Source of the DNA: an uncultured Methanosarcinales archaeon
Lineage (GTDB): Archaea; Nanobdellota; Nanobdellia; Woesearchaeales; GW2011-AR4
NCBI GenBank assembly: GCA_964466175.1
Contig: CAYXMT010000004.1
Coordinates: 1 to 32,000 of the forward strand
Direction of reading: 5' to 3'
Length of the DNA: 32,000 bases
The notes beneath the pieces are model-generated. The model did not search any database, was not told the origin of the DNA, and saw only the letters and a list, made by a program, of their open reading frames with translations. The position numbers and the translations under genes are program-made. Every line of letters begins with the position of its first letter. The first letter of the stretch is position 1. Below are positions 11,978-32,000 of the stretch, one piece after another.

Positions 11978-11978
11978 A

Positions 11979-14455: not shown

Positions 14456-14683
14456 TTACTGCCTAGCAGTCTTCTGACCAAACAATATTCCAGCTAAAAC
14501 ATTCAAAGCCCATGCCTGCAAAACCCCAATAGAATAAACACTGCCAAAAACAAAGTTCCACAGCAGCATCACCGGAAAAGCCAAAACTAAACCCACTATT
14601 CCGCTGATCAGTACAACCAGGGCTATAGTATAAGCCATTTCCAGCATTCTTTTCAAAAACGGTGTTTGATCTAATAGTGCCAT
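14456..14683 (-). CDS. Small two-TM membrane protein, unknown function
   Basis: 75 aa with two clear hydrophobic helices. GAGGAG lies 5 nt upstream of the ATG. It sits 29 nt upstream of bioY on the same strand. Confidence 0.45.
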   Translation of the reverse strand: MALLDQTPFLKRMLEMAYTIALVVLISGIVGLVLAFPVMLLWNFVFGSVYSIGVLQAWALNVLAGILFGQKTARQ

Positions 14684-15383: not shown

Positions 15384-15785
15384 ATGAAAACCAATAAGAC
15401 AGAACTAAGAGTTTACTATGCAGACACAGATCATGGCCAAGTCGTTTATTATTCAAACTATCTGAAATGGTTTGAAATTGGAAGAACAGAGATTCTAAGG
15501 CAATCCGGATTCAATTATGCAAAGTTTGCAAAACAAGGCCTTATAGCCCCAGTAGTTGAGGTAAAATGCAATTACAAGGAATCTGCAAAATATGACGATA
15601 TCATAATAATTAAAACAGCCATAGAGAACATAGGCAACAGCAGTATCAAATTTAATTATAAAATCTCAAGAAAAAGCGACAAAAAATTATTGGCTGAAGG
15701 TTATACAGTAAATGTTTTTGTCGACCAAAAAACAAAGAAATCAACTAAAATACCTGAAAATCTAAGAAAAGCATTGAAAAGCTAA
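15384..15785 (+). CDS. Acyl-CoA thioesterase, YbgC/4HBT hotdog family
   Basis: 133 aa. LRVYYADTDHGQVVYYSNYLKWFEIGRTE is the YbgC-type catalytic-Asp N-terminal motif. Confidence 0.8.
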   Translation: MKTNKTELRVYYADTDHGQVVYYSNYLKWFEIGRTEILRQSGFNYAKFAKQGLIAPVVEVKCNYKESAKYDDIIIIKTAIENIGNSSIKFNYKISRKSDKKLLAEGYTVNVFVDQKTKKSTKIPENLRKALKS

Positions 15786-16540: not shown

Positions 16541-18440
16541 TTTGCATTAATTCTTGTCTACCTGACATGACCCACGCATTTGGTTTGTTATTAAGATTAT
16601 TCTTCTTATCCATATACTTGGATACTGCAGTAGTGACCACAATCATTTTCTGGCCGTTGGTTAATTCTTTGCGTTTTTGACCGATGTATTTCTTTACAGA
16701 TTTAAGAATGTCATTTTTCTCTATAAACGCTGTTGTAAATTTCCCCTTGACAAAATTTTTGTTGTGCAAAACAGCCAGATGGAAAGGTATTGTTGTCTTT
16801 ACACCTTCTATAAAATATTCTTTTAGTGCCCTGTTCATCCTGGTTATTGCCTCATGTCTGTCATTTCCATGGCATATTAACAAGGATAATAATGAATCAT
16901 AATCAGGCAGCACTTTATAGCCCTGGTGGCATATGCTGTTAACCCTTATTCCCGGACCTCCAGGAGGAAGATAATTAGTTATTAATCCGATTGAAGGCCT
17001 GAAATCTTCCAAAGGATCTTCTGCATTGACCCTACACTCTATTGCCCATCCATCAAGCTTGATATGGTCCTGGTTAAATGCAAGTTTTGCTCCTGCCGCA
17101 AGCTTAATCTGTTCCTTGACAAGGTCCACTCCAGTGACCATTTCAGTAACTCCGTGTTCAACTTGTATTCTTGTATTCATTTCTATAAAATAGAAATTCT
17201 TGCTCTTGTCCAGCAAAAACTCTACGGTTCCGGCTCCTTCGTACCTTGCAGCTGACACAGCTCGTACAGCAGCGTCTCCCATTTTTTCCCTTAACTCTGC
17301 AGTTATAGCTGGACTAGGGCTTTCCTCAACAAGTTTCTGGTGTTTTCTTTGGATACTGCAATCTCTTTCACCTAAATGAACAACATTGCCATAACGGTCC
17401 GCTAATATCTGGAATTCTATATGCCTGGGCTCTTCAATATATTTCTCCATATACAAAGTTTTGTCTCCAAAAGACAGGAAAGCCTCTGCTCCGGCACTCA
17501 CATAGGCTTTTTCCATCTCTTCTTCCTCCGTAACAATCCTCATCCCTTTTCCGCCTCCGCCGGCTGCAGCCTTGATTATAACAGGAAATCCTAATTTCTT
17601 GGCTATCTTAAACGCATGTTTCCAGTTTTTCAATGCTATTGTAGTTCCTTCTATTACCTGTACCTTAGCCTTAGTCACTGTCCTCTTTGCCATGACCTTG
17701 TCTCCCAAAAGCATGATTGTCTTTGACAAAGGCCCTATAAACTTGATTTGGTTTTTCTCGCATAATTTTGCAAACTTTGCATTCTCTGCCAGAAATCCGT
17801 ATCCAGGATGTATTGCATCAGATTCTGTCTTTTTGGCAATGCTGATTATTTTATTAATATCCAGATAACTTACTCCCGAACCCATGCAGCATGCCTTGTC
17901 TGCAAACTTTACTGACAAGCTGTCTTTATCGTTGCTAGAATAAACCAAAACAGTTTCTATTCCTAGCTCGCGACAAGCCCTAATAACTCTTAGAGCTATT
18001 TCTCCCCTATTGGCTATCAAAACTCTCTTGAATTCCTTCTCCTTAGACAGAATAGTATACTCTTTTTCACTAAAGCTAGAAACGCTTAATCCCTTAGCAA
18101 CCATGTCAATAAATGTCTGGGAAGATTTGCTGCCCACTATTTTCTTCAGCTCTCTTGCATCCAGGCTGGGAATTTTTTTGATTAAGCTTGATGTTATTGT
18201 ATCCCCGAGTTCGGCCAGATTAGCTTTTTTAAACACCTTTTTTCTTTTATCAATTGGAACAATATTGCTCTTAATCAAAGTTTCAACCTCTTCATAAACT
18301 AATGGGGCTGTTTTTTTTATTTTACGAAAGACTTTTTTAAAGGCCTCATAAGAGTGTTCCGCAGGAGTTAGACTCCTATTTAGAGCTGAGACAAATTTCT
18401 CCTTCATTCTGAATGAAATATTATTTTTTTTCTTACCCAT
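16533..18440 (-). CDS. accC: Biotin carboxylase (ATP-grasp) with an N-terminal extension of about 136 aa and a C-terminal tail
   Basis: Core motifs FKRVLIANRGEIALRVIRACRELGIE, KAAAGGGGKGMRIV and EMNTRIQVEHGVTE. The track start 18467 is a TTG. The ATG at 18440 is preceded by AGGAG with a 5-nt spacer, so I prefer it. Confidence 0.9.
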   Translation of the reverse strand: MGKKKNNISFRMKEKFVSALNRSLTPAEHSYEAFKKVFRKIKKTAPLVYEEVETLIKSNIVPIDKRKKVFKKANLAELGDTITSSLIKKIPSLDARELKKIVGSKSSQTFIDMVAKGLSVSSFSEKEYTILSKEKEFKRVLIANRGEIALRVIRACRELGIETVLVYSSNDKDSLSVKFADKACCMGSGVSYLDINKIISIAKKTESDAIHPGYGFLAENAKFAKLCEKNQIKFIGPLSKTIMLLGDKVMAKRTVTKAKVQVIEGTTIALKNWKHAFKIAKKLGFPVIIKAAAGGGGKGMRIVTEEEEMEKAYVSAGAEAFLSFGDKTLYMEKYIEEPRHIEFQILADRYGNVVHLGERDCSIQRKHQKLVEESPSPAITAELREKMGDAAVRAVSAARYEGAGTVEFLLDKSKNFYFIEMNTRIQVEHGVTEMVTGVDLVKEQIKLAAGAKLAFNQDHIKLDGWAIECRVNAEDPLEDFRPSIGLITNYLPPGGPGIRVNSICHQGYKVLPDYDSLLSLLICHGNDRHEAITRMNRALKEYFIEGVKTTIPFHLAVLHNKNFVKGKFTTAFIEKNDILKSVKKYIGQKRKELTNGQKMIVVTTAVSKYMDKKNNLNNKPNAWVMSGRQELMQNE

Positions 18441-18510
18441 TATTACTCCTAATGTATAGGTTTTCAATTTATAAATATTTGCATATATAGAAGGTAGATA
18501 TTACGGATTA

Positions 18511-21298: not shown

Positions 21299-21306
21299 TT
21301 TTTAAA
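21299..21306 (+). promoter_or_regulatory. Putative TATA box of the fabZ-thiolase operon
   Basis: TTTTTAAA is centred about 26 nt upstream of ATG 21328, which implies a leaderless transcript. Confidence 0.45.
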
Positions 21307-21327
21307 CGCCCCAGGGTTAGACAGCCC

Positions 21328-21825
21328 ATGAAATCCATAGATAGTTTTAAGGATAAAAAAGGGCAGATAGGCACAAAGAACATCAAGAAGATTATACCTT
21401 ATGAAAAACCTTTTTTATTCATTGACAAAGTTTTAAGGCTTGACAAAAGGGAAATAGTGGCGATAAAAAACATAAGAAGTGATGAAGATTACTTTAAGGG
21501 CCATTTTAAAGGATTTCCCATTATGCCTGGAGCATTGATTGTAGAAGGTCTTGGACAAGCTGCAACTTTGCTAGTAAGATACAACATAAAGAATCAGGAA
21601 CAAAAAGATGTTTTGGCTTACAAGATCAGGTCTGCCAAATTTTACAGGCCCACTTTTCCAGGCCATACATTAAGGTTTGAAGCTAAGTTGATTTTCATGT
21701 TCAAAAAAATAGCTTTTGTAAACGGCAAGGTTTTCAGAAAAGATAAGATGGTTTCAAAAGTAAAGATGGTGATGGCAATAGTAAATAAGAAAAGCTTTAG
21801 AGGAAGATACAGCGGGAAAAAATAA
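21328..21825 (+). CDS. fabZ: FabZ/FabA-type 3-hydroxyacyl thioester dehydratase (hotdog fold)
   Basis: PFLFIDKVLRLD...DEDYFKGHFKGFPIMPGALIVEGLGQAA carries the FabZ catalytic His (GHF) and Glu (VEGLGQ) motifs. Confidence 0.85.
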   Translation: MKSIDSFKDKKGQIGTKNIKKIIPYEKPFLFIDKVLRLDKREIVAIKNIRSDEDYFKGHFKGFPIMPGALIVEGLGQAATLLVRYNIKNQEQKDVLAYKIRSAKFYRPTFPGHTLRFEAKLIFMFKKIAFVNGKVFRKDKMVSKVKMVMAIVNKKSFRGRYSGKK

Positions 21826-21853
21826 AAACAGATATATTCTATTTAAACTTAAA

Positions 21854-22984
21854 ATGTATTACGTAAAAGGCGTAGGAATGACGAAATTTGGTGTTCATAG
21901 TAAAACCAGTCAGGAGTTGTGTTATGAAGCGGTAATGGAAGCATTGGAAGATGCTAATATGCAATTATCAGATATAGATCAGATAATAATCTCCAAAGGA
22001 GATTCATTGCATGATGGGGAAAGGCAAAGATTATTCCAGGGAGTATTGAGCAACATATTAGGATGTGAGGACATACCTATTTTCAGAGTTACAGCAGCAT
22101 GTAGTGGCGGAGGTTCCGCTTTCTGGGATGCTGTGCACTCAGGCAAAAAAAATGTGCTCGTGCTTGGAGTAGAAAAGTTAAGCCCATGCCTTACCAAATA
22201 TTTGACTGATGAGTTTATGATGGCTGCTGAAAGGATTTATGAACAAACTGAAGGTCTTAATTTTCCCGCACAAAATGCCCTTGTTGCGCAGCAGTATATG
22301 ATAAAGTACGGTGCAACATCAGATGACCTGGCATTGATTGCATTAAAAAATCACGAGAATGCGTTCGACAATCCAAAAGCAAAATTTTACAAAAAGAAAG
22401 TTACATTAGACATGATAAAAAAATCTCCAGTAGTTGCCAGTCCGCTGAGATTGTTTGACTGCAGTATATCAGTAGACGGTGCTGCAGCTGCAATAATCAG
22501 TAAGGACAAAACAGACATTAAGATAGCTGGCTCTTCATTATATGCTGGCAGATTATCTACTTTTGAAAGTCCGGACATGTCCACATGGGAAGCTACAGTG
22601 CTCGCTGCAAAAGATGCTTATAATGAAGCAGGTGTGACTCATGAAGATATTGACTTTGTTGAAGTGCATGACGCATTCACTCCTGTAGAGCTCCTGTCTT
22701 ATGAAGACCTGGGATTTGCAAAAAAAGGCCAGGGGCCAAAATTGATAAGAGACGGGACAACAAAAATTAATGGTAGTCTTCCTGTCAACACCTCTGGTGG
22801 ATTAAAAGCCAAGGGTCATCCTGTAAGTGCAACAGGTGTTTCTCAAATTTATGAGATTGTCAGACAGATGAGAGGCCGATGTGATAAGAGGCAGCTGGAC
22901 AGAACAAGGACTGGTCTCGCCCATAATGTAGGGGGAGCAGGCAGCACTGTAACAGTCCATATACTAAAGAATTTAGGTGGTTGA
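21854..22984 (+). CDS. Thiolase-superfamily protein, SCP-x/archaeal DUF35-associated type (paralog 1)
   Basis: Motifs VKGVGMTKFG, VTAACSGGGSAF (nucleophile Cys), VHDAFT, NTSGGLKAKGHPVSATG and NVGGAGST. Confidence 0.85.
   Translation: MYYVKGVGMTKFGVHSKTSQELCYEAVMEALEDANMQLSDIDQIIISKGDSLHDGERQRLFQGVLSNILGCEDIPIFRVTAACSGGGSAFWDAVHSGKKNVLVLGVEKLSPCLTKYLTDEFMMAAERIYEQTEGLNFPAQNALVAQQYMIKYGATSDDLALIALKNHENAFDNPKAKFYKKKVTLDMIKKSPVVASPLRLFDCSISVDGAAAAIISKDKTDIKIAGSSLYAGRLSTFESPDMSTWEATVLAAKDAYNEAGVTHEDIDFVEVHDAFTPVELLSYEDLGFAKKGQGPKLIRDGTTKINGSLPVNTSGGLKAKGHPVSATGVSQIYEIVRQMRGRCDKRQLDRTRTGLAHNVGGAGSTVTVHILKNLGG
22229..22507 (+). repeat. Near-identical block shared by the two thiolase paralogs (copy A; copy B at 24856-25134)
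   Basis: About nine in ten nucleotides are identical by eye over 279 nt, including long perfect runs such as TTAAAAAATCACGAGAATGCGTTCGACAATCCAAAAGCAA. The 5' parts of the two genes are strongly diverged. Confidence 0.9.
22745..22806 (+). repeat. Perfect 62-nt repeat between the thiolase paralogs (second copy at 25372-25433)
   Basis: ATAAGAGACGGGACAACAAAAATTAATGGTAGTCTTCCTGTCAACACCTCTGGTGGATTAAA occurs identically in both genes. Confidence 0.95.
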
Positions 22985-22986
22985 AA

Positions 22987-24453
22987 ATGATTGTAAGATG
23001 GGTTTGTGAAAAAGACAACAGGAAATGGATATATCCTATTAAGAAGTGTTTATACTGCGGGGAGCCTGTAAAAAAACAGGTGGGAAGAAAAACAAAAGTC
23101 ATAGGACTGACAAAAGTAAACATTCCTTCACCTTTGCATCCAATAACACCCTATAATATTATCCTTCTTGAGGATGAGTTTGGCAATCGTATGCCAAAGA
23201 AAACAATGAAGGACTACAAAATTGGAGATGTTTATTCAATTGAAAAGGCAAAAACAGATTCTGCAGTTATAATAACAAAAATAAAATATGATTTAGGAGA
23301 ATCGCTAAAGGAATCCCTTAACCTGTTAAATTCATTTGATATTGAAAAACAGGACAAAGTTCTGATAAAGCCCTGCATCATAGAACCTGCATACCCGTAT
23401 CAAACATCGAATACTTCTCCTAAGCTTTTGGATGAAATTATAAAGATGCTGAAAGACATGGGAGTTTCTGATATAATTGTAGGAGACCAGGCCATGCCTG
23501 GCAATGACACAACAGCTTCTGCAAAAAAATCCGGTATTCTTGATGTGTGCAAAAAAAATGATATTCCGTTAGTGGACCTTCGAAAATCGCAATACATTGA
23601 AAAAACTGAGGATGGAATGAAGTTTAGCATCGCAAAAGAAATTATGGAGCGCAAAGTCATCAATGTGCCTGTAATGAAAACGAATTCTCAATTAGGAGTT
23701 TCCGGAGCAATGGAAAATATGCTGAGAGTTGTTGACGAAAATACTCAAATGGAGATGTTTGCAGTAGATATTGAAAAAACCCTGCCAAAGCTGATAAAAG
23801 CACTCCCGAAGTTTGTGACAATAGGTGATGCTACTATAGGTATGCATGCTCAGGGCCCTACCTTACTGGGAGAGCCTGCTTTCATGAACATGCTGTTCAT
23901 AAGCAAAGATCCTGTTGCTTTGGACAGTGCATTTTCCGAAGTAGGTATGCTTCCAACTCCAGAGTACATAAAAGAAGCAACTGGAATCAATGAATATGAT
24001 GCTTATGTAAAGAAATTAGAAATAGTTGGTGATGAATTGGAAGCCGCTAGATATCACCTTAAAGTTCCGGATAAAACAGCAAGTGCGCACCCCAGAATAA
24101 AGCTCATTGATGCTAAATCAAACCCATTAGTATTTTACACAGCATTAAAAGCAAGTTCAAAACTGGTTGGGTTGCCAGGTCATGAGATAAATATAGCAAT
24201 GGGAAAATTTTTAACAGAAGAAATGGTAAATGGAAAGAAAAGAATAATAGCATATGGAACAGACGCCATAAATAAGCTAAAAGAACTGAATATAACCCCC
24301 ATAGCAGAGGTTCCGGAAGATATGGGAGACATAGAAAAATTAACACTACTAAAAAGCATCCTTGAAAACCCGGACAAAAAAAGCGTAAGTGTAAAGGACA
24401 AAATGAAATCAAAACTTGCAGGGCTTGGAGCTAAGATTAAAGGTGCATTCTGA
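22987..24453 (+). CDS. DUF35 (zinc-ribbon + OB fold) fused to a DUF362-like domain and an unassigned C-terminal region
   Basis: The N-terminus has VCEKD...CLYCGEP followed by the OB-like GRKTKVIGLTKVNIPSPLHPITPYNIILLEDEFGN...IGDVY. The middle has DKVLIKPC, IIVGDQA, VINVPVMKTNSQLGVSGAMEN and IGDATIGMHAQGPTLLGEP...ISKDPVALDS (DUF362 pattern). The track start 22981 is a TTG. The ATG at 22987 lies 2 nt after the thiolase-1 stop. Confidence 0.7.
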   Translation: MIVRWVCEKDNRKWIYPIKKCLYCGEPVKKQVGRKTKVIGLTKVNIPSPLHPITPYNIILLEDEFGNRMPKKTMKDYKIGDVYSIEKAKTDSAVIITKIKYDLGESLKESLNLLNSFDIEKQDKVLIKPCIIEPAYPYQTSNTSPKLLDEIIKMLKDMGVSDIIVGDQAMPGNDTTASAKKSGILDVCKKNDIPLVDLRKSQYIEKTEDGMKFSIAKEIMERKVINVPVMKTNSQLGVSGAMENMLRVVDENTQMEMFAVDIEKTLPKLIKALPKFVTIGDATIGMHAQGPTLLGEPAFMNMLFISKDPVALDSAFSEVGMLPTPEYIKEATGINEYDAYVKKLEIVGDELEAARYHLKVPDKTASAHPRIKLIDAKSNPLVFYTALKASSKLVGLPGHEINIAMGKFLTEEMVNGKKRIIAYGTDAINKLKELNITPIAEVPEDMGDIEKLTLLKSILENPDKKSVSVKDKMKSKLAGLGAKIKGAF

Positions 24454-24459
24454 TTTAAG

Positions 24460-25608
24460 ATGGTTTCTATGAAAGTTTACATCAAAGGCGTAGGTATGAC
24501 AAAGTTTGGTGTAGATAGAAAAAGCTCTCATGAGAGGATATGTGAAGTCATTGGTGAATGCCTTAAATCAACAGATATGAATTTTGACGACATAGATGTC
24601 ATATTTGCATCGAATTCTGAATCAGAAAGGAACGAGGAAAGGCAGAAACACCAGGGTCCTATGCTAAGTACACTCTTCCAGAGGGAAATGCCTATACTTA
24701 ATGTGCCTGCAGGATGTGCTGGCGGAGGTGTTGCTTTGTGGAATTCCATCAACTATCTCAGATCTTCAGATTGCAAAAACATAATGGTCATTGGATATGA
24801 TAACATAGTATCATTAACCTCAGAGATTATTACAGACGAAATACTTATGGGCAGTGAGCGTATATGTGAACAGACTGAAGGGCTTAATTTCCCTGCACAA
24901 AATGCCCTTGTTGCGCAGCAGTATATGATGAAGTACGGTGCAACATCAGATGACCTTGCATTAATTGCTTTAAAAAATCACGAGAATGCGTTCGACAATC
25001 CAAAAGCAATGTTCTACAAAAAGAAAGTTACATTAGATATGATAAAAAAATCTCCTGTGGTTGCCAGTCCGCTAAGATTGTTTGACTGCAGTATATCTGT
25101 AAATGGTGCTGCAGCTGCAATAATCAGTAAAGATCCGGGAAATATTGAGATTATTGGCTCAGGAATGTGCACAACCAGTCTGTCTCCAATTGAGAGGAAA
25201 GATATGACTTCAATGAGTTCTACAATAAAGGCTGCAAAGACTGCTTATGAGCAGGCAGGAATAAAACCTGAAGACTTGGATATAGCAGAACTGCATGACG
25301 CATTCACTCCATTAGAGCTATTATCTTATGAAGACCTTGGATTTGCAAAGAAAGGTCATGGAGCAGAGTTAATAAGAGACGGGACAACAAAAATTAATGG
25401 TAGTCTTCCTGTCAACACCTCTGGTGGATTAAAGGCCAAGGGCCATCCTATCAGCCCTACCGGGCTAGCCCAGATTTATGAGATTTCAAAACAAATGAAA
25501 AATGAATGTGGTAAAAGGCAGATAAATAAGCCGAAATATGGTCTTGCGCAGAATGTTGGTGGTGTAGGCACAATGGCTGCTGTGCATATCCTAAAGAATC
25601 TTAATTGA
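24460..25608 (+). CDS. Thiolase-superfamily protein, SCP-x/archaeal DUF35-associated type (paralog 2)
   Basis: Motifs IKGVGMTKFG, VPAGCAGGGVAL (nucleophile Cys), LHDAFT, NTSGGLKAKGHPISPTG and NVGGVGTM. Confidence 0.85.
   Translation: MVSMKVYIKGVGMTKFGVDRKSSHERICEVIGECLKSTDMNFDDIDVIFASNSESERNEERQKHQGPMLSTLFQREMPILNVPAGCAGGGVALWNSINYLRSSDCKNIMVIGYDNIVSLTSEIITDEILMGSERICEQTEGLNFPAQNALVAQQYMMKYGATSDDLALIALKNHENAFDNPKAMFYKKKVTLDMIKKSPVVASPLRLFDCSISVNGAAAAIISKDPGNIEIIGSGMCTTSLSPIERKDMTSMSSTIKAAKTAYEQAGIKPEDLDIAELHDAFTPLELLSYEDLGFAKKGHGAELIRDGTTKINGSLPVNTSGGLKAKGHPISPTGLAQIYEISKQMKNECGKRQINKPKYGLAQNVGGVGTMAAVHILKNLN
24856..25134 (+). repeat. Copy B of the near-identical thiolase block
   Basis: See copy A at 22229-22507. 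Confidence 0.9.
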
Positions 25609-26362
25609 TTTTTTTATCCTTTAGAAATTTCTTTAATATCTCTTTGTTCTCTTTGGTTCTTGAACATTTAACATAAGACTGAACTTCAAAATCATCCTGC
25701 AGATCTTTAAGATAATCTTTATTCACTGATTTTTTTGTAAGCTCCAGCGCTTTTGCCGGCTTTTTTGCTATCCCGGATGTTAAGTCATTCAAAAAAGAAT
25801 CAATCTTGTTCTCAGAAACTAAAAAATCTACAAGCCCCCATTCTAAAGCAGTTTTACTGTCTATTGTAGCTCCTGTAAACAGCATATATTTAGCCTTCCC
25901 AAAACCTATCAGTCTTGGCAATCTTTTTGTGCCTCCTAAAGGGGCTACTGTGCCAAGCGAAGTTTCCGGATGTATAAATTTTGCATTAGGCAGCGCTATT
26001 CTCATATCACAGGCCATTGCCAGTTCATTTCCACCGCCCACAGCAATTCCGTTTATAACGGCTATAAAAATCTGGGGCATTGTTTCAATCTTGGAAAAAA
26101 TGTTTTGCACAGATTTTAATTGTTTTTTAGCTTCATTGATATCCATATCCCCTACTTCCTGTTCCCATGAGATATTTCCTCCTGAGCAGAATGCTTTTCC
26201 TTTGCCTTTTATCACAACTACATTCAAATTACTGGACTTTATTCTCTCCAAAATTCTATCCAGCTCTTTTATCATCTCAAAATCAAAAGAGTTCAGCTTT
26301 TCAGGATTATTCAAAAATATTGTTCCTGTCTTGCCATTGGCATTAAAGGTTATTTTATTCAT
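25601..26362 (-). CDS. Enoyl-CoA hydratase/isomerase (crotonase) family protein
   Basis: Motifs VVVIKGKGKAFCSGGNI, AVINGIAVGGGNELAMACDMRIA and FIHPETSLGTVAPLGGTKRLPRLIG, giving the oxyanion hole and both catalytic Glu positions. Confidence 0.85.
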   Translation of the reverse strand: MNKITFNANGKTGTIFLNNPEKLNSFDFEMIKELDRILERIKSSNLNVVVIKGKGKAFCSGGNISWEQEVGDMDINEAKKQLKSVQNIFSKIETMPQIFIAVINGIAVGGGNELAMACDMRIALPNAKFIHPETSLGTVAPLGGTKRLPRLIGFGKAKYMLFTGATIDSKTALEWGLVDFLVSENKIDSFLNDLTSGIAKKPAKALELTKKSVNKDYLKDLQDDFEVQSYVKCSRTKENKEILKKFLKDKKIN

Positions 26363-26382
26363 TTTTTAAGTCTCAAAATATT

Positions 26383-27801
26383 TTATAGTTTTGAATTTAA
26401 TATATGGATAGCCTTGCCCATGGCTGCTTCTGCTGCTTCCATTAAGCTCTCGCTTAAAGTAGGATGAGGATGTATTGTCAAAGCTAAATCCTCTACAGAA
26501 GCATTCATCCTTATTGCCAAAGCAGCCTCGCTTATAAGGTCTGATACATCATGCCCCACAATCTGCACCCCAACTATCTTTTTATCATTTTCATTAGAAA
26601 TTATTTTCACAAATCCTTGTGTACTGCCTCTTGTCATGGCTCTGCTTGATGCGCTAAATGGAAATTTTCCTGCCTTTATATTCATTCCCTTGGCCTTTGC
26701 TTCTTCTTCGCTTAAGCCAACAGCAGCAATTTCCGGATCAGTAAAAATAACCGCAGGTACGACATCGCCCTCATAACTGCCTTTATCGCCAGCAATTGAT
26801 TCTGCAGCAAACCTGCCTTGTGATGAAGCTTTATGAGCCAGCATGGGCCCTATAGAAACATCTCCTATCGCATATATATTTTTATCATTAGTCTTCAGAT
26901 ATTTATCCACTTTAATAAATCCATCACTATCCAATTCTACTTTAGTGTTTTCAATACCTAAATTTTTTGTATTGGGCTTTCTGCCTACGGCAACCAGAAT
27001 CTTATCTGCATCTAAGGATATTCTGCCTTTTTCTTTTGAATTTACAATTATTTTCTTACCTTCAATTTTATCTGCCTTTGTATCAAGATGCACTTCAACA
27101 TTGATATTTTCTAGGTTCCTCTGCAGCACATCAACAACGCTTTTGTCAAATCCGGGTAAAATCTGCTCCTGCATCTCAACAACACAAACCTTGCTTCCGA
27201 GTTTTGCATAAACTGTTCCTAACTCTAATCCTATATAGCCTGCGCCTACAACAACCAGGTTCTTTGGGATTTTATCCAAATACAAAGCTTCTCTTGAACT
27301 AATAATTTTCTTACCGTCAAATTTAAAGTTTGGCAATTCAATTGGTTCTGAGCCTGATGAAATTATCGCCTTTTCAAAATCGACATAAGAAACACTTTTT
27401 CCATTGCTTATTTTTAACCTGTTGGAATTTTCAAAAACCACGCTTCCCTTAACAACATCAACATTATTTTTCTTGCAAAGAAATTCAATCCCAGTTATTA
27501 GCTTCGAAACTACCTTGTCCTTCCATTCCTGCATCTTCTTAAAATCCATCGTAACTTTATCTACCTTAATCCCCATATCAGAAGATTTCTTGATTTTATC
27601 CAGAAATTCAGATGCATAAATCATTGCTTTTGATGGGATGCAGCCGTAATTAAGGCATATTCCGCCAAGTTTATCTTCATCAATCAAAACAACCTTTTTG
27701 TTCAGCTGACCAAGCCTTATAGCAGCCACATATCCTCCTGGACCTGCACCTATTACAACAACTTCCGCTTTCGTGGTATTACTTGAATTCATCTCATACA
27801 T
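26383..27801 (-). CDS. lpdA: Dihydrolipoyl dehydrogenase (E3, class I pyridine nucleotide-disulfide oxidoreductase)
   Basis: Motifs VVVIGAGPGGYVAA, GGICLNYGCIPSK (redox disulfide), VVVGAGYIGLE and the C-terminal HPHPTLSE His-Glu dyad. Confidence 0.88.
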   Translation of the reverse strand: MYEMNSSNTTKAEVVVIGAGPGGYVAAIRLGQLNKKVVLIDEDKLGGICLNYGCIPSKAMIYASEFLDKIKKSSDMGIKVDKVTMDFKKMQEWKDKVVSKLITGIEFLCKKNNVDVVKGSVVFENSNRLKISNGKSVSYVDFEKAIISSGSEPIELPNFKFDGKKIISSREALYLDKIPKNLVVVGAGYIGLELGTVYAKLGSKVCVVEMQEQILPGFDKSVVDVLQRNLENINVEVHLDTKADKIEGKKIIVNSKEKGRISLDADKILVAVGRKPNTKNLGIENTKVELDSDGFIKVDKYLKTNDKNIYAIGDVSIGPMLAHKASSQGRFAAESIAGDKGSYEGDVVPAVIFTDPEIAAVGLSEEEAKAKGMNIKAGKFPFSASSRAMTRGSTQGFVKIISNENDKKIVGVQIVGHDVSDLISEAALAIRMNASVEDLALTIHPHPTLSESLMEAAEAAMGKAIHILNSKL

Positions 27802-27891
27802 ACGGTTCTATTTACCATTAATAAATCTAACGCTTTATTGCCAGGAAAAAGAGAAAATTTAAAAAGCTGCCATTTTTACTGTTTTAACTAA

Positions 27892-28875
27892 ATGGTCATG
27901 AGTATAACTACACAGCAGCCTAAATCTTGGAAGCCTGACAGGCCTGCTTCAAAAGGTGCAACAACATTTCATAATGCAGTTATTGATGCTTCATGGAATA
28001 ATGAATGTCTAGACCAGCTTATTTCTATTGCTAAGCCTAATATCCATGAAAATAGTGTTGTGGTAGACTTTGGAGCTGGTACAGGGACATCATCCGTTAG
28101 AATCCTGGAAAAGCTAAAAATTAAGATAAATCTATGGCTGGTTGACAACTCGCCGGCATGGCTGGGAAAAGCATATGAATTTTTAGGTTCTCGCCCTAAT
28201 GTTAATTTTTTTATTCTGGAGAAAAAAGACAATAGATATACTACTTTATCTGAGACAGTAGGAAAAGGGACTGTAGATAATGTAATGTGTGCAAACACTG
28301 TTCACCTGATACCTAACCTAAAAGAAGCATTTAAGGGTATTGCTGAAGCATTGAAGTCAAAAGGTACTTTTGTTTTTAATACAGGGAATATCCTTAGGGA
28401 TGGAAGGAAAAAAGGGGTTTTGATGCTTGATTCCACAGTATACCGGGTCCATGATATAGCCATAGATATAATTCGTAAAAATTCTAAATTTAAGAAGTAT
28501 AGGAAAAACCTTGATGAAAATATTAAAGCTTATACTCCTTTAAGGAATTTTATTTTTCCTAATCCCAGACCACTTCAGGAATACCTAACTGCCTTAAAAG
28601 ATGCAGGATTCAAGTATATGGAACCTTATTACAAATGCATCCGGTTAAAGTATAGTGATTGGATTAACTTTCTAAGAATTAAGCGGCTGCAGGCAGGAAT
28701 TCTGCCTGAAATCGGAGGTAAAAATCCTAATCCGGATCAGGAAAACGATAGAGATGCCTTGATTATCATGGCTGCACAAAAATTGTTCAAAGAATTAGAA
28801 AAGCTTAATCCATTTGCAGATGATAAAAGTTATCTTGGGGAATGGGTCTACATATCTGCAACAAAATCTAATTGA
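27892..28875 (+). CDS. Class I SAM-dependent methyltransferase with a long C-terminal extension
   Basis: VVDFGAGTGTSSVRILE (motif I), a WLVDNS acidic loop, and a VMCANTVHLIP / KGTFVF post-motif pattern. 327 aa. The target is unknown. Confidence 0.7.
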   Translation: MVMSITTQQPKSWKPDRPASKGATTFHNAVIDASWNNECLDQLISIAKPNIHENSVVVDFGAGTGTSSVRILEKLKIKINLWLVDNSPAWLGKAYEFLGSRPNVNFFILEKKDNRYTTLSETVGKGTVDNVMCANTVHLIPNLKEAFKGIAEALKSKGTFVFNTGNILRDGRKKGVLMLDSTVYRVHDIAIDIIRKNSKFKKYRKNLDENIKAYTPLRNFIFPNPRPLQEYLTALKDAGFKYMEPYYKCIRLKYSDWINFLRIKRLQAGILPEIGGKNPNPDQENDRDALIIMAAQKLFKELEKLNPFADDKSYLGEWVYISATKSN

Positions 28876-28883
28876 TTATAAAA

Positions 28884-29618
28884 ATGTTAAAAGGAAAAAC
28901 AGCATTAGTCACTGGAGGTTCGACAGGCATTGGAAGGTCTACTGCATTTGAACTTGCAAAAAATGGGGCAAATATTATCATTAACTATCTTGCCAATGAT
29001 AAAGAAGCTAATGATGTTGCTGAACAAATCAAGAAATTAGGAGTGGAATGTATAGCGGTTAAAGCTAATGTTACAAATTTTGATGAAGTTAAGAAAATGG
29101 CTGAAACTGCACAAAAACAATTCAAAAATGTTGATATTCTTATCAACAATGCAGGTATTGTTAAGGATAGAACATTAAAAAACATGACTAAAGATGAATG
29201 GGATGCTGTCATAAACACTAATCTCAACAGCGTTTTCTATGTAACCAAGGCCATTTTGCCCCTAATGGGAGAAGGAGGAAGAATCATAAGCGTATCTTCC
29301 ATTATAGGCCAGTATGGGAACTTTGGCCAGTCTAATTATGCAGCTTCTAAAGCAGGCATCATAGGTTTCACAAAGTCTCTGGCAAAAGAGCTTGGCAAAA
29401 AAAAGATAACAGTAAATGCTGTTGCTCCTGGTTTTGTGAAAACCACAATAACAAAAGATATACCTTTTATAAGAAAAAAGATGATAAGTTATATGACTCC
29501 ATTGAAAGATGAAGCCGAACCAGAAGATATTGCCAATGTTATTGCTTTCCTGGCATCAGATAAAGCCAGATACATTACAGGAACCGTAATAAATGTTGAC
29601 GGCGGCCTAGCTTTCTGA
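28884..29618 (+). CDS. fabG: 3-oxoacyl thioester reductase, FabG-type classical SDR
   Basis: Motifs LKGKTALVTGGSTGIGRS, NNAGI, SSIIGQYGNFGQSNYAASKAG (Ser-Tyr-Lys triad) and VNAVAPGF. The track start 28872 is a TTG, so I prefer the ATG at 28884. Confidence 0.88.
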   Translation: MLKGKTALVTGGSTGIGRSTAFELAKNGANIIINYLANDKEANDVAEQIKKLGVECIAVKANVTNFDEVKKMAETAQKQFKNVDILINNAGIVKDRTLKNMTKDEWDAVINTNLNSVFYVTKAILPLMGEGGRIISVSSIIGQYGNFGQSNYAASKAGIIGFTKSLAKELGKKKITVNAVAPGFVKTTITKDIPFIRKKMISYMTPLKDEAEPEDIANVIAFLASDKARYITGTVINVDGGLAF

Positions 29619-31400: not shown

Positions 31401-32000
31401 TTATTCTATCTTCAGCAAATCAGATATAGCTTCCTTTAAATCTTTGTTCTTATAAAGCACTTCATAAGCCTGTTCTGTCAGAGGCATGTAAAGTTTGTTT
31501 TTTTTGCTGAATTCATAAACAGCCTTTGTTGTCTGTATGCCTTCTGCTACCCTGCCTTTCATTTCTTTTTTGATATTATCAAGTGTTTTCCCTTTTGCAA
31601 TTCTCTCGCCAGCTAACCTATTTCTGCTGTGCTTGCTTGTGCATGTTGCCACTAAGTCGCCTATTCCTGCAAGACCATAAAAGGTTGATCTTTTGGCACC
31701 TAGAAATTTGCCATAAGTGGACATTTCCATCAACCCTATTGTTATAATGCTGGCTTTTGCATTATCCCCATATCCTAAACCGTCGCATACACCAGTTGCT
31801 ATTGCTGCTATATTCTTCAGAGCCCCGCAAACTTCAACGCCAATTATATCATTATGCGTAAAAACCCTAAAATAGCTTGTATGGAATATTTTCTTGATTT
31901 CATTAAGGCAATCAGTATTCTCAGATGCTATAACTGTTGCCGTCGGCATCTTTCTGCTGACTTCTTCAGCATGATTTGGGCCAGACAACGACACTATTGA
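31401..32000 (-). CDS. gpsA: NAD(P)H-dependent sn-glycerol-3-phosphate dehydrogenase, partial (N-terminus beyond the window end)
   Basis: Motifs SGPNHAEEV, VEVCGALKNIAAIATGVCDGLGYGDNAKASIITIGLMEM, GDLVATCTS..SRN and AEGIQT match GpsA. The frame stays open upstream to position 32000. The track's M at 31994 is a GTG inside the ORF. Confidence 0.85.
   Translation of the reverse strand, partial: SIVSLSGPNHAEEVSRKMPTATVIASENTDCLNEIKKIFHTSYFRVFTHNDIIGVEVCGALKNIAAIATGVCDGLGYGDNAKASIITIGLMEMSTYGKFLGAKRSTFYGLAGIGDLVATCTSKHSRNRLAGERIAKGKTLDNIKKEMKGRVAEGIQTTKAVYEFSKKNKLYMPLTEQAYEVLYKNKDLKEAISDLLKIE

What the first reader, a model, noticed from the sequence alone, without database searches (positions are those of the whole stretch)
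21299..29618. ACP-less, KAS-less fatty-acid-type cluster in an archaeal genome
The cluster spans 8.3 kb. The first operon is fabZ, thiolase-1, a DUF35/DUF362 fusion and thiolase-2, with spacers of 28, 2 and 6 nt and a putative leaderless promoter. A convergent lpd-crotonase operon follows, then a methyltransferase-fabG operon. An acyl-CoA carboxylase, BirA, BioY and a YbgC thioesterase lie 3-10 kb upstream, and a bacterial-type gpsA lies 2 kb downstream. Condensation, ketoreduction and dehydration or hydration steps are all represented, plus malonyl-CoA supply and chain release. No ACP, phosphopantetheinyl transferase, FabH/B/F or enoyl reductase is visible. Comparative genomics has proposed that archaea build fatty acids on CoA using thiolase/DUF35 pairs together with bacterial-type SDR and dehydratase enzymes. 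A thiolase/HMG-CoA-synthase/DUF35 complex is known from the methanogen mevalonate pathway. This locus differs from both: it has two thiolase paralogs and no HMGCS, a FabZ rather than a MaoC dehydratase, and DUF35 fused to DUF362. In a presumed lipid-scavenging small-genome archaeon it is a candidate novel acyl-chain synthesis or remodelling system, or a reverse beta-oxidation system.
Basis: partly seen in the sequence, partly recalled or inferred. Interest (0 to 1): 0.8.

Follow-up and report, generated by a model that had tools for sequence, protein, structure and literature searches.

The report
ACP-free fatty-acid synthase cluster, Woesearchaeota
A tiny marine DPANN archaeon carries a conserved gene cluster that looks able to build fatty acids on coenzyme A, using thiolases instead of the usual carrier protein and condensing enzyme, and to attach them to glycerol-3-phosphate, which challenges the view that these organisms can only scavenge lipids.

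Summary
Acyl-CoA carboxylase, BirA, BioY and a YbgC thioesterase lie upstream; gpsA lies downstream. No ACP, KAS, PPTase or enoyl reductase is in the window.

The DUF35 part is seen only at fold level. The context is archaeal and relatives are named Woesearchaeota.

New here:
- The cluster is syntenic in about 55 Woesearchaeota/Nanoarchaeia species.
- gpsA is followed by two PlsC-type acyltransferases just past the window end.
- Sister lineages place an acyl-CoA dehydrogenase with EtfAB between the SDR and PlsC.
- Bacteria of the Candidate Phyla Radiation (CPR) carry a homologous cluster with FabK.
- Lpd and crotonase are clade-specific accessories.
- Every thiolase beside the fusion has lost the HDCF catalytic cysteine (HDAF).

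Best reading: a CoA-based, thiolase/DUF35-scaffolded fatty-acid synthase feeding G3P acylation. This is a new variant of the Sulfolobus archaeal FAS. The enoyl reductase of this genome type, the extender unit and the roles of DUF362 and the methyltransferase remain open.

The parts
11922..13451 (+). Acyl-CoA carboxylase carboxyltransferase subunit (PccB/MmdA type)
   Evidence: Pfam Carboxyl_trans 609 bits. NCBIfam mmdA subfamily 745 bits, below its cutoff. Syntenic with the cluster in most loci.
13453..13842 (+). Biotin carboxyl carrier protein
   Evidence: Pfam Biotin_lipoyl; NCBIfam BCCP-type hits.
13839..14426 (-). BioY biotin transporter
   Evidence: Pfam BioY 127 bits.
15384..15785 (+). 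YbgC/FadM-type acyl-CoA thioesterase; candidate for chain release
   Evidence: TIGR00051 113 bits, above its cutoff of 68.7; Pfam 4HBT_2.
15782..16540 (-). BirA biotin-protein ligase
   Evidence: Pfam BPL_LplA_LipB and BPL_C.
16533..18467 (-). Biotin carboxylase (AccC) with a Lys-rich N-terminal extension of about 145 aa
   Evidence: TIGR00514 660 bits, above its cutoff of 626.5, over aa 146-587. Extension sequence.
21299..21306 (+). TATA-like box TTTTTAAA about 26 bp upstream of the FabZ ATG; putative leaderless promoter
   Evidence: Read directly from the sequence. Spacing inferred from general knowledge of archaeal promoters.
21328..21825 (+). FabZ-type (R)-3-hydroxyacyl-thioester dehydratase
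   Evidence: Pfam FabA 73 bits. NCBIfam FabZ 109.9 bits against a cutoff of 113. GHF...E catalytic motif present.
21854..22984 (+). Ketothiolase 1 (SCP-x/archaeal type)
   Evidence: Pfam Thiolase_N and Thiolase_C_1. Best PDB matches 7yvy and 6esq_A. Cys nucleophile (AACSGGG) and GHP present; HDAF in place of HDCF.
22987..24453 (+). DUF35 (aa 1 to about 100) / DUF362 (about 125-340) / C-terminal alpha-beta domain (about 345-488) fusion; presumed scaffold of the thiolase complex
   Evidence: Pfam DUF362 115 bits. AF2 pLDDT 85. Foldseek: N-terminus matches DUF35 folds, the rest matches a LarA-like enzyme, 9q3j. 225 homologues, all about 488 aa.
24460..25608 (+). Ketothiolase 2, paralogue of KT1 (63% identity; 96% over aa 126-215)
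25601..26362 (-). Crotonase-family enoyl-CoA hydratase/isomerase; accessory, found only in the window's clade
   Evidence: Pfam ECH_1 169 bits. Present only in L010, L012 and L015 among 63 loci.
26383..27801 (-). Dihydrolipoyl dehydrogenase; accessory, found only in the window's clade
   Evidence: TIGR01350 565 bits, above its cutoff of 408.8. Present in L010-L019 only.
27892..28875 (+). Class I SAM-dependent methyltransferase with cap domain; substrate unknown; fused to the SDR in other lineages
   Evidence: Pfam methyltransferase families. DFGAGTG motif. AF2 pLDDT 94; Foldseek gives generic small-molecule methyltransferases. MT-SDR fusions of 567-573 aa.
28884..29618 (+). FabG-type NADPH 3-ketoacyl-thioester reductase (SDR)
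   Evidence: TIGR01830 293 bits against a cutoff of 297.75. TGxxxGIG, NNAG and S...YxxxK motifs.
31401..32000 (-). gpsA, NAD(P)H glycerol-3-phosphate dehydrogenase, cut by the window end. On the parent contig it is followed by two PlsC-type acyltransferases and RadA.
   Evidence: Pfam. Full gene and the two PF01553 genes on L005-L007. NCBIfam GpsA 404 bits, above its cutoff of 257. HX4D and EGTR motifs in both PlsC proteins.

Best explanation
The locus is the core of an ACP-independent, CoA-based fatty-acid synthesis pathway of a marine Woesearchaeota (DPANN) archaeon. It is wired directly to bacterial-type glycerolipid assembly.

**Proposed flow**
1. The biotin-dependent acyl-CoA carboxylase (BC, BCCP, CT), served by BirA and BioY, supplies a carboxylated extender. 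This step is inferred.
2. Two paralogous SCP-x-type ketothiolases condense it, or acetyl-CoA, with the growing acyl-CoA. They are held by the DUF35 Zn-ribbon/OB domain of the 488-aa fusion protein. Fold, adjacency and catalytic Cys/His are shown; complex formation and the extender unit are inferred.
3. The FabG-type SDR reduces 3-ketoacyl-CoA to (R)-3-hydroxyacyl-CoA with NADPH.
4. FabZ dehydrates it.
5. An enoyl-CoA reductase completes the cycle. In this genome type it is not identified within 10 kb. Sister lineages encode Acd/EtfAB in the same slot and CPR bacteria encode FabK.
6. Acyl-CoA is transferred by two PlsC-family acyltransferases onto glycerol-3-phosphate made by GpsA, giving phosphatidic acid. 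The YbgC thioesterase can release free acid.

The DUF362 (LarA-clan) module and the methyltransferase are conserved parts whose chemistry is unknown. Lpd and crotonase are clade-specific add-ons.
For: **Gene identities and motifs.**

**DUF35 fold of the fusion N-terminus.** All close structural matches are thiolase-partner DUF35 proteins.

**Synteny.** Across 63 GTDB loci and 9 further contigs the order is RadB-CT-BCCP-BioY-[TE]-BirA-BC-FabZ-KT1-fusion-[SDR]-KT2-[CoAT]-MT-SDR...GpsA-PlsC-PlsC.

**Explicit enoyl reductases in relatives.**
- L055, L062 and L052 carry a contiguous same-strand run, FabZ-KT-fusion-KT-SDR-Acd-EtfB-EtfA-PlsC-PlsC (followed by GpsA in L055 and L062; L052 ends at PlsC).
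- The Acd is closest to clostridial acryloyl-CoA reductase AcrC, at 538 bits. This is a CoA-level enoyl reductase.
- CPR loci L065, L073 and L074 have KT, fusion, SDR and FabZ(-FabK) with PlsC and BC/BCCP; BirA and CT are also seen in L065 and L073.

**Membrane-lipid modifiers in some clusters.** A fatty-acid desaturase sits in the cluster in L008/L021. A cyclopropane-fatty-acid synthase family (CMAS) gene sits in the cluster in L065.

**No ACP.** No ACP-like ORF was found in about 1.07 Mb of these loci.

**Precedent.** A KT/DUF35 + FabG-SDR + dehydratase + ECR pathway makes fatty acids on CoA in S. acidocaldarius (10.1101/2024.07.05.601840).
Against: - No enoyl reductase is present in the window or within 10 kb in any long-fusion locus.
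- FabZ and FabG score almost at the thresholds of the ACP-dependent bacterial equivalogs. An ACP and AcpS elsewhere in the genome cannot be excluded, because whole genomes were not searchable.
- Nothing here shows direction, chain length, or de novo synthesis as opposed to elongation of scavenged acids.
- The thiolases lack the canonical acid/base Cys, so ordinary thiolase chemistry is not guaranteed.
- CPR relatives also carry FakA/DegV and PlsY for uptake of exogenous fatty acids.
- The field's current view is that these archaea cannot make lipid building blocks (PMC11868695).
Confidence: 0.62

Rival explanations
1. The same enzymes are used only to elongate or remodel fatty acids scavenged from a host or the environment. 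They lengthen, unsaturate or methylate the acids before re-esterification to G3P. There is no de novo synthesis.
For: - DPANN and CPR organisms are generally regarded as lipid scavengers (PMC11868695, PMC10936187).
- The CPR cluster L073 sits beside FakA/DegV and PlsY, which take up exogenous fatty acids.
- CoA-transferase genes occur in many clusters.
- The window type has no enoyl reductase in the cluster.
Against: - Tight, conserved linkage to an ATP-dependent acyl-CoA carboxylase with its own BirA and BioY is the hallmark of extender supply for sustained synthesis.
- No acyl-CoA synthetase is conserved in the cluster.
- PFOR is inserted in L052, which points to acetyl-CoA supply.
- Elongation and de novo synthesis use the same cycle, so this differs in degree only.
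Confidence: 0.18
2. An ordinary split bacterial-type FAS II. ACP, AcpS, FabD, a KAS and FabI are encoded elsewhere. The thiolases and the fusion serve another purpose, such as acetoacetyl-CoA formation.
For: - FabZ (109.9 against a cutoff of 113 bits) and FabG (293 against 297.75 bits) are nearly equivalog-grade bacterial enzymes.
- FabK, an enoyl-ACP reductase family, is used in the CPR version.
- Zhang et al. report FabI in some DPANN metagenome-assembled genomes (PMC10936187).
Against: - Across about 60 loci the only condensing enzymes in the operon are thiolases, placed between FabZ and FabG.
- No ACP is found in 1.07 Mb of flanks.
- The enoyl reductase in sister lineages is an acyl-CoA dehydrogenase with ETF, which acts on CoA esters.
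- The Sulfolobus FabG homologue works on CoA esters.
Confidence: 0.08
3. A catabolic or fermentative pathway. Either beta-oxidation of host acyl-CoAs, or reverse beta-oxidation to butyrate or caproate for redox balance and energy, using thiolase, hydratase, and Acd/Etf in relatives.
For: - Thiolases and a crotonase are present.
- Acd/EtfAB in sister clusters resembles clostridial acryloyl/butyryl-CoA reductases.
- Thioesterase and CoA-transferases could release acids.
- Woesearchaeota are predicted fermenters (PMC10936187).
Against: - The conserved core has no NAD-dependent (S)-3-hydroxyacyl-CoA dehydrogenase (3HCDH family) and no acyl-CoA synthetase.
- Crotonase is confined to one clade.
- FabG and FabZ are the (R)-specific, NADPH-type anabolic pair.
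- An ATP-consuming carboxylase, gpsA, two PlsC genes, a desaturase and a CMAS gene in the same clusters make no sense for fermentation.
Confidence: 0.05
4. A dedicated pathway for a specialised product rather than bulk membrane acyl chains. Candidates are pimeloyl-thioester for biotin via a BioC-like methyltransferase, a polyene or pigment (no enoyl reductase), or methyl-branched or dicarboxylic chains.
For: - The methyltransferase has a weak BioC hit of 31.8 bits, and BioC and JHAMT are among its structural neighbours.
- Its best PDB sequence hits are PKS C-methyltransferase domains, though weak.
- The methyltransferase is fused to the ketoreductase in several lineages.
- Biotin genes are adjacent: BirA and BioY here, BioB/F/D in L009.
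- Precomputed Pfam hits list ApeI/ApeP-like families for the FabZ.
Against: - The BirA and BioY linkage is explained by the biotin-dependent carboxylase.
- The window genome imports biotin yet keeps the cluster.
- L009's biotin cluster has its own methyltransferase and hydrolase.
- The methyltransferase is absent from short-fusion and CPR clusters, which keep everything else.
- The gpsA and PlsC linkage and near-universal conservation next to housekeeping genes argue for a core membrane function.
Confidence: 0.07

Closest known systems
Archaeal fatty acid synthase complex of Sulfolobus acidocaldarius: KT Saci_1121 / DUF35 Saci_1120 + FabG-type ACR + MaoC dehydratase + MDR enoyl-CoA reductase (Schmerling et al. 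2024, bioRxiv 10.1101/2024.07.05.601840). Predicted earlier by comparative genomics (Dibrova et al. 2014, cited from memory).
   Same: - ACP-independent and CoA-bound.
- An SCP-x-type ketothiolase encoded next to a DUF35 module.
- A FabG-family NADPH ketoreductase.
- An (R)-specific hot-dog dehydratase step.
- DUF35 expected to scaffold the complex.
   Different: - Two thiolase paralogues flank the DUF35 gene.
- DUF35 is fused to a DUF362/LarA-clan two-domain module.
- The dehydratase is FabZ. That paper says FabZ/FabA-type dehydratases are absent from archaeal genomes.
- There is no MDR enoyl reductase. The slot holds Acd/EtfAB or FabK in relatives and nothing in the window type.
- Acyl-CoA carboxylase, BirA and BioY, and GpsA plus two PlsC genes, are part of the same conserved locus.
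- The thiolases have HDAF instead of HDCF.
- In Sulfolobus a malonyl-CoA-dependent reaction was judged unlikely; it was tested and disproved only for the beta-oxidation thiolase Saci_1114.
[quoted passage not shown]
   Same: - The thiolase is of the same family: 190 and 178 bits to 6esq_A.
- The DUF35 fold of the fusion matches 6esq chains E-G.
- The three genes form one operon.
   Different: - The second thiolase-superfamily partner is another thiolase, not HMGCS.
- DUF35 carries about 390 extra residues.
- The 6esq thiolase has HDCF.
- The context is fatty-acid and glycerolipid genes, not mevalonate. Woesearchaeota are reported to use the MEP pathway (PMC8204110).
DUF35 fused to the enzyme of the neighbouring step: ChsH2(MaoC hydratase)-DUF35/Ltp2 and Shy(DUF35-hydratase)/Sal steroid side-chain aldolase complexes (PDB 6ok1, 9myr; PMC12329534)
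   Same: - A DUF35 domain is covalently attached to another module and docks it onto a thiolase-fold partner.
- Foldseek matches both.
   Different: - The partner there is a catalytically repurposed aldolase that lacks the Cys nucleophile. Here the Cys nucleophile is retained.
- The fused module there is a hydratase. Here it is DUF362, of unknown chemistry.
Bacterial type II fatty acid synthase plus the GpsA/PlsC phosphatidic acid pathway
   Same: - FabZ and FabG are near equivalog grade.
- A biotin carboxylase-type ACC is present.
- GpsA is present.
- PlsC-family acyltransferases carry HX4D and EGTR motifs.
- FabK is used in the CPR version.
   Different: - No ACP, AcpS, FabD or FabH/F/B in the window or in any related locus.
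- Condensation is by thiolases.
- The carboxyltransferase is the single-chain PccB/MmdA type, not AccA/AccD.
LarA (lactate racemase) superfamily / DUF362 (Pfam clan CL0471; PMC11770544)
   Same: - The central and C-terminal parts of the fusion hit Pfam DUF362 at 115 bits.
- They best match a LarA-like nickel-pincer enzyme by fold: 9q3j, E 3e-5 over 318 columns.
   Different: - TM-score is only 0.29.
- No evidence for nickel-pincer cofactor binding residues or for the LarB/C/E cofactor-synthesis genes.
- No DUF362 protein has a known function.

Membership tests
Archaeal KT/DUF35 CoA-dependent fatty acid synthase (Sulfolobus type) | SCP-x/archaeal-type ketothiolase with catalytic Cys and His, encoded next to a DUF35 protein | tested here: met
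   KT1 and KT2 flank the fusion gene. Cys nucleophile and GHP His are conserved in about 80 orthologues. DUF35 fold shown.
Archaeal KT/DUF35 CoA-dependent fatty acid synthase (Sulfolobus type) | FabG-family NADPH (R)-specific ketoacyl-CoA reductase | tested here: inconclusive
   SDR with the FabG motifs, 293 bits to TIGR01830. Cofactor, stereochemistry and CoA versus ACP preference are not testable here.
Archaeal KT/DUF35 CoA-dependent fatty acid synthase (Sulfolobus type) | [quoted passage not shown] | tested here: not met
   The dehydratase is FabZ/FabA-family. No MaoC gene in the window.
Archaeal KT/DUF35 CoA-dependent fatty acid synthase (Sulfolobus type) | MDR-superfamily NADPH enoyl-CoA reductase | tested here: not met
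   No MDR/ADH_zinc gene in the window. Relatives use Acd/EtfAB or FabK.
Archaeal KT/DUF35 CoA-dependent fatty acid synthase (Sulfolobus type) | Stable complex of KT, DUF35, reductase and dehydratase | not testable with these tools
   Needs co-purification or multimer modelling.
Bacterial type II FAS | Acyl carrier protein and phosphopantetheinyl transferase | tested here: not met
   No Pfam PP-binding or ACPS hit in window ORFs. tblastn with E. coli and B. subtilis ACP finds nothing at E<=0.1 in the window plus 72 loci. The rest of the genome was not searchable.
Bacterial type II FAS | KAS condensing enzymes (FabH/FabB/FabF) and FabD | tested here: not met
   The only thiolase-superfamily genes are SCP-x-type thiolases. 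FabH models score 24-45 bits against cutoffs of 249-292.
Bacterial type II FAS | FabZ and FabG equivalog scores | tested here: inconclusive
   FabZ 109.9 bits against a cutoff of 113. FabG 293.1 against 297.75. Both fall just below.
Thiolase/HMGCS/DUF35 mevalonate-entry complex | HMG-CoA synthase subunit | tested here: not met
   Both partners are thiolases (63% identical). An HMGCS-like gene occurs only as a separate extra module in some relatives such as L036.
DUF35 (Pfam PF12172 zf-ChsH2 + PF01796 OB_ChsH2_C) | Match to the Pfam models | tested here: not met
   No hit for aa 1-114 even at E<=10. hhalign against a canonical DUF35 gives probability 1%.
DUF35 (Pfam PF12172 zf-ChsH2 + PF01796 OB_ChsH2_C) | Zn-ribbon plus OB fold that pairs with a thiolase-fold protein | tested here: met
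   Foldseek probability 1.0 to BbsA, PhlB, ChsH2-DUF35, 6esq DUF35 and MucB. The Cys-x2-[Cys/Asp]...Cys-x2-Cys motif is C7/D10/C21/C24 in the window, four Cys in many homologues, and lost in one clade. The gene lies between two thiolase genes.
DUF362 / LarA clan | Pfam DUF362 above gathering score | tested here: met
   115.4 bits against a cutoff of 24. Generic DUF362 proteins match profile positions of about 90-430.
DUF362 / LarA clan | Nickel-pincer nucleotide cofactor site (LarA Lys/His ligands) and LarB/C/E genes | not tested
   No residue-level structural alignment was available. Whole genomes could not be searched.
Beta-oxidation cluster | Acyl-CoA dehydrogenase, NAD-dependent 3-hydroxyacyl-CoA dehydrogenase (3HCDH) and acyl-CoA synthetase | tested here: not met
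   None in the window. The crotonase is confined to the window's clade.

The most novel reading that the evidence does not exclude
The thiolase(HDAF)/DUF35-DUF362 assembly is a new kind of condensing machine. It uses malonyl-CoA decarboxylatively, with the DUF362 module contributing to extender handling or carbanion generation. It thereby replaces KAS and ACP in ultra-small cells of both domains (DPANN Woesearchaeota and CPR Parcubacteria/Paceibacteria). This would let organisms thought to be obligate lipid scavengers make ester-linked G3P phospholipids de novo.

Supporting correlations:
- Every thiolase next to a DUF35-DUF362 fusion has lost the HDCF acid/base cysteine.
- Thiolases next to a plain DUF35 keep it.
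- The fusion-type clusters are the ones linked to an acyl-CoA carboxylase.
Probability: 0.25. Interest if true: 0.9.

Novelty: new variant of a known kind. Interest (0 to 1): 0.72.

Why it matters
**The lipid divide.** Archaea make isoprenoid ethers on G1P and bacteria make acyl esters on G3P. DPANN and CPR organisms are textbook examples of cells assumed to steal their lipids. A conserved locus that joins extender supply, a full CoA-based elongation cycle and G3P acylation would mean many Woesearchaeota can make bacterial-type phospholipids themselves.

**Wider consequences if the cluster functions as read here.**
- The experimentally shown archaeal FAS would extend from Sulfolobus to a very different lineage with different parts.
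- An archaeal-style (thiolase/DUF35) and bacterial-style (FabZ/FabG/FabK, GpsA/PlsC) hybrid pathway has apparently been exchanged between DPANN and CPR.
- The DUF362 family, which has thousands of members, would get a first concrete functional context.
- A precise biochemical question follows: can a thiolase without its acid/base cysteine condense malonyl-CoA?

Tried and rejected
**DUF35 by sequence: all negative.**
- Pfam on aa 1-114 and on the C-terminal 153 aa at E<=10 gave no hits.
- A profile of 29 homologues against PDB sequences gave no hits.
- hhalign against a canonical DUF35 from L036 gave probability 1%.
- Only the fold comparison worked.

**ACP candidates.**
- The conserved 75-aa ORF at 14456-14683 (-) was considered as an ACP. 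It is a two-helix membrane protein.
- ACP tblastn was negative everywhere.

**Idea that the fusion's C-terminal domain plus the methyltransferase replace the enoyl reductase.**
- For: long fusion co-occurs with the methyltransferase, short fusion with Acd/Etf or FabK.
- Against: several long-fusion loci (L036, L049, L059, L060, L043) lack the methyltransferase.
- Against: L058 has a short fusion without Acd/Etf.
- Against: the C-terminal domain is simply part of ordinary full-length DUF362 proteins.
- No stand-alone copy of that domain exists in short-form loci.

**Methyltransferase function.** Neither sequence nor fold discriminates between PKS C-methyltransferase, BioC, JHAMT and phosphoethanolamine N-methyltransferases; all are about 15% identical.

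**Split thiolase-1 ORFs in L001 and L003.**
- They were considered as pseudogenes or recoding.
- The frameshifts sit at the borders of the near-identical KT1/KT2 segments, so assembly chimeras are likely.
- This is not resolved.

**Literature and naming.**
- The supplement of PMC8204110 has no mention of ACP, thiolase or DUF362.
- No paper was found for PDB 7yvy.

Full report
**1. The observation**

- 21328-21825: FabZ-type dehydratase. Its FabZ equivalog score is 109.9 bits against a cutoff of 113, and it has the GHF...E catalytic motif.
- 21854-22984 and 24460-25608: two SCP-x/archaeal-type thiolases.
- 22987-24453: a 488-aa protein between them with DUF362 at aa 127-318.
- 25601-26362 and 26383-27801, convergent: crotonase and a bona fide dihydrolipoyl dehydrogenase.
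- 27892-28875: class I methyltransferase.
- 28884-29618: FabG-type SDR. It scores 293 bits against a cutoff of 297.75 and has the TGxxxGIG, NNAG and S...YxxxK motifs.

The 28, 2 and 6 nt spacers are correct. TTTTTAAA at 21299-21306 lies about 26 bp before the FabZ ATG.

Upstream are a PccB/MmdA-type carboxyltransferase, BCCP, BioY, a YbgC/FadM thioesterase, BirA and an AccC biotin carboxylase. Downstream is gpsA, cut by the window end.

RadB, archaeal-type PEP carboxylase, NFACT and an archaeal S2 give an archaeal context. Homologues at 60-75% identity are labelled Woesearchaeota or Nanoarchaeota. The exact protein occurs on Tara Oceans and ENA marine contigs of up to 37 kb.

All window ORFs of 80 aa or more that were scanned lack ACP, PPTase, KAS and enoyl-reductase families. 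Only ORFs nested inside or overlapping the annotated genes were left out. ACP tblastn is negative.

**2. The fusion protein**

The 'DUF35' half is not detectable by sequence.
- Pfam at E<=10 gives nothing.
- A 29-sequence profile against PDB gives nothing.
- hhalign against a canonical DUF35 gives nothing.

It is detectable by fold. An AlphaFold2 model (pLDDT 85, pTM 0.85) gives Foldseek matches at probability 1.0 for its first 100 or so residues. The matches are exactly the DUF35 proteins that partner thiolase-fold enzymes: BbsA, PhlB, ChsH2-DUF35, the 6esq DUF35, Shy-DUF35 and MucB.

The Zn ribbon is C7/D10/C21/C24 in the window. Many homologues have four Cys, and one clade has lost the motif.

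The rest of the protein best matches a LarA-like nickel-pincer enzyme (9q3j, E 3e-5, 318 columns, TM 0.29). This fits DUF362 and LarA_N sharing Pfam clan CL0471 (PMC11770544).

A profile search of 1.84 billion representatives finds 4,604 DUF362 relatives. Only the top 45 or so carry the N-terminal DUF35. Ordinary DUF362 proteins cover profile positions of about 90-430, so the C-terminal domain is part of the standard two-domain DUF362 body.

Across archaeal long forms, archaeal short forms and forms from bacteria of the Candidate Phyla Radiation (CPR), at 28-34% identity, the DUF35 part is the best conserved. The DUF362 part keeps Y138, Q168, K181, K231, N244 and D313. That pattern looks like a ligand or catalytic pocket rather than a mere spacer. 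This last point is an inference.

**3. Conservation and context**

The contig continues past the window with the rest of gpsA, two PF01553 (PlsC-family) acyltransferases and RadA. Both acyltransferases have HX4D and EGTR motifs.

A scan of one genome per GTDB species returned 63 loci. About 55 are Woesearchaeota or Nanoarchaeia, though some are auto-labelled 'Methanosarcinales'. Mapping 24 reference proteins onto them gives a canonical order:

RadB, CT, BCCP, BioY, [TE], BirA, BC, FabZ, KT1, fusion, [SDR], KT2, [CoA-transferase], MT, SDR, TRAM, LigT, S2, GpsA, PlsC, PlsC, RadA.

Variations on this order:
- Crotonase is found only in L010, L012 and L015, and Lpd only in L010-L019. These are accessories of the window's clade.
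- The methyltransferase is fused to the SDR in several lineages.
- A fatty-acid desaturase sits in the cluster in L008/L021.
- PFOR sits in the cluster in L052.
- Biotin synthesis genes lie beside it in L009.
- Some genomes add a separate HMGCS-like/thiolase/canonical-DUF35/CoA-transferase module.

**4. The missing enoyl reductase and the CoA question**

Four Woesearchaeota lineages have a short fusion of 343-379 aa with no C-terminal domain.
- In L055, L062 and L052 the cluster is a contiguous same-strand run: FabZ, KT, fusion, KT, SDR, acyl-CoA dehydrogenase, EtfB, EtfA, PlsC, PlsC, followed by GpsA in L055 and L062 (L052 ends at PlsC).
- That dehydrogenase is closest to clostridial acryloyl-CoA reductase AcrC, at 538 bits. 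AcrC is an enoyl-CoA reductase that works with ETF.

A short-form family of 180 clusters belongs to CPR bacteria: Paceibacterota, Minisyncoccales, Nealsonbacteria and Parcubacteria DG_74_2.
- On long CPR contigs with bacterial neighbours (NusA, PlsY, FakA/DegV), the cluster is KT, fusion, [BioY], SDR, FabZ (often fused to FabK), FabK, PlsC(x2), BC and BCCP; BirA and CT are also present in L065 and L073.
- L065 also carries a cyclopropane-fatty-acid synthase family (CMAS) gene in the cluster.

All four elongation activities are therefore explicit in relatives. The reductase is interchangeable, and in the archaeal short form it is a CoA-ester enzyme.

In the window's long-form type, no Acd, Etf, FabK or MDR reductase lies within 10 kb in any locus. 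This gap is real and unexplained.

**5. The thiolases**

KT1 and KT2 are 63% identical overall. They are 39% identical over aa 1-125 and 96% over aa 126-215, and 88% identical at the DNA level between 22205-22504 and 24832-25131.

Across 33 genomes:
- The N-terminal third shows orthology. KT1 to KT1 between genomes is 0.57, against 0.48 within a genome.
- The centre is more alike within genomes (0.83) than between orthologues (0.76).
- This means an old duplication with ongoing gene conversion.

Both keep the Cys nucleophile and the GHP His in every orthologue. The SCP2-thiolase HDCF motif, however, is HDAF in essentially all of them, and the C-terminal motif is N[IV]GG with no CxG Cys.

Thiolases next to a plain DUF35 in L069, L071 and L072, and the 6esq thiolase, have HDCF. 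PDB holds a trypanosomatid SCP2-thiolase as HDCF (4bi9) and as an HDAF variant (4bia). From memory, that work (Harijan et al. 2013) showed the HDCF Cys to be important for catalysis.

So loss of the usual acid/base Cys co-varies with the DUF362 fusion and with ACC linkage. A decarboxylative condensation with malonyl-CoA would not need that base. This is an inference, not a result. One natural HDAF thiolase (7yvy) is deposited as an acetyl-CoA acetyltransferase.

**6. Interpretation**

The best-supported reading is a CoA-based fatty-acid synthase of the thiolase/DUF35 kind. It is fed by an acyl-CoA carboxylase and drains into GpsA/PlsC phosphatidic-acid synthesis. Confidence is about 0.6.

Rivals:
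- Elongation or remodelling of scavenged acids. This uses the same cycle and cannot be separated here.
- A split ACP-dependent FAS II. This is disfavoured by thiolases being the only in-operon condensing enzymes and by Acd/Etf.
- Catabolism or fermentation. This is disfavoured by ACC, gpsA, PlsC, the desaturase and CMAS, and by the absence of 3HCDH.
- A specialised product involving the methyltransferase. The methyltransferase is dispensable in short-form and CPR clusters.

**7. Comparison with what is known**

The closest system is the S. acidocaldarius archaeal FAS. The present locus fails two of its defining parts, the MaoC dehydratase and the MDR reductase, and adds several others. It works like that system but is not the same assembly.

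Earlier work noted 'bacterial fatty acid synthesis genes' and gpsA in Woesearchaeota (PMC8204110). It also noted FabG/FabI/FabZ in marine DPANN metagenome-assembled genomes (PMC10936187) and GpsA/PlsC in DPANN (PMC6431249).

I found no description of the following in the searchable library:
- the thiolase/DUF35-DUF362 core;
- the HDAF feature;
- the Acd/Etf and FabK variants;
- the CPR counterpart.

Recent work still states that DPANN cannot make lipid building blocks (PMC11868695).

**8. Verdict**

This is a new variant of a known kind. Interest is 0.72.

Noticed in passing
window 22205-22504 vs 24832-25131 (also 22549-22848 vs 25176-25475): The two thiolase paralogues are mosaic: 39% amino-acid identity over residues 1-125, but 96% over residues 126-215 (88% at DNA level). 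Across 33 genomes the central part is more alike within a genome than between orthologues. This indicates recurrent gene conversion.
   Followed up: yes
L001:9050-9920 and 11470-12530; L003:8929-10004: Thiolase-1 (and the end of thiolase-2 in L001) is broken into two or three frames in two groundwater Woesearchaeota assemblies. The breaks lie at the borders of the near-identical KT1/KT2 segments, so assembly chimeras are suspected. Pseudogenes or recoding are not excluded.
   Followed up: partly
L065:8092-21029; L073:5668-19118; L074:7930-17999: CPR bacteria (Parcubacteria/Paceibacterota) carry a homologous ACP-less cluster on one strand: thiolase, short DUF35-DUF362, SDR, FabZ (often fused to FabK), FabK, PlsC and BC/BCCP, with BirA and CT also seen in L065 and L073. 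L065 also has a cyclopropane-fatty-acid synthase family gene. L073 is flanked by FakA/DegV and PlsY.
   Followed up: partly
L055:13053-16180; L062:13542-16905; L052:16712-19844: Woesearchaeota with a short fusion protein place an AcrC-like acyl-CoA dehydrogenase plus EtfB/EtfA between the SDR and the two PlsC genes. This is a candidate ETF-dependent enoyl-CoA reductase.
   Followed up: yes
L003:14422-16143; L008:14438-16141; P0174, P0179, P0222, P0234: The methyltransferase and the FabG-type SDR are fused into one protein of 567-573 aa in several lineages. Those lineages also carry a second stand-alone SDR between the fusion protein and thiolase-2, and a family III CoA-transferase.
   Followed up: partly
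window 16533-18467 (-), N-terminal about 145 codons (18033-18467): The biotin carboxylase has a Lys-rich N-terminal extension of about 145 aa with no family match. It is conserved in Woesearchaeota orthologues (622-644 aa) and absent from the CPR ones (482-516 aa).
   Followed up: partly
window 14456-14683 (-): A 75-aa ORF predicted to be a small two-helix membrane protein is conserved at the same position, beside BioY/BirA, in distant relatives (L003:5306-5533, L009:4858-5085). It is not an ACP; function unknown.
   Followed up: partly
window 18511-21225 (-): A 904-aa UPF0182 membrane protein (936 bits) is inserted between the biotin carboxylase and FabZ. This occurs only in the window's closest relatives (L005-L007, L010); elsewhere BC and FabZ are adjacent.
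   Followed up: no
window 984-1099 (-): A stand-alone 5S rRNA gene (Rfam 69.5 bits) with no 16S or 23S nearby. No tRNA genes occur in the 32 kb.
   Followed up: no
L036:13406-19201 (similar in L059, L049, L060, L034): Some Woesearchaeota add a second, classical module next to the cluster: an HMGCS/KAS-III-like protein (346 aa), a thiolase-fold protein whose nucleophile Cys is replaced by Asp (seen in L059 and L060), a canonical 131-aa DUF35 that does hit Pfam, and three CoA-transferase genes.
   Followed up: partly
L008:17718-18893; L009:1-4851: A membrane fatty-acid desaturase gene lies between S2 and gpsA in one lineage. In another, a biotin synthesis set (BioB, an LCM-like methyltransferase, an MBL hydrolase, BioF, an ELFV-like protein and BioD) lies just upstream of the carboxylase genes.
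   Followed up: no
P0048, P0055, P0063, P0068, P0073 (alignment A1 columns 21-50): One clade of full-length fusion proteins has replaced all Zn-ribbon cysteines (CEKC...CxxC becomes SEDG...DxxS/T) while keeping the rest of the DUF35 part. The window protein itself has Asp at the second ligand position.
   Followed up: partly
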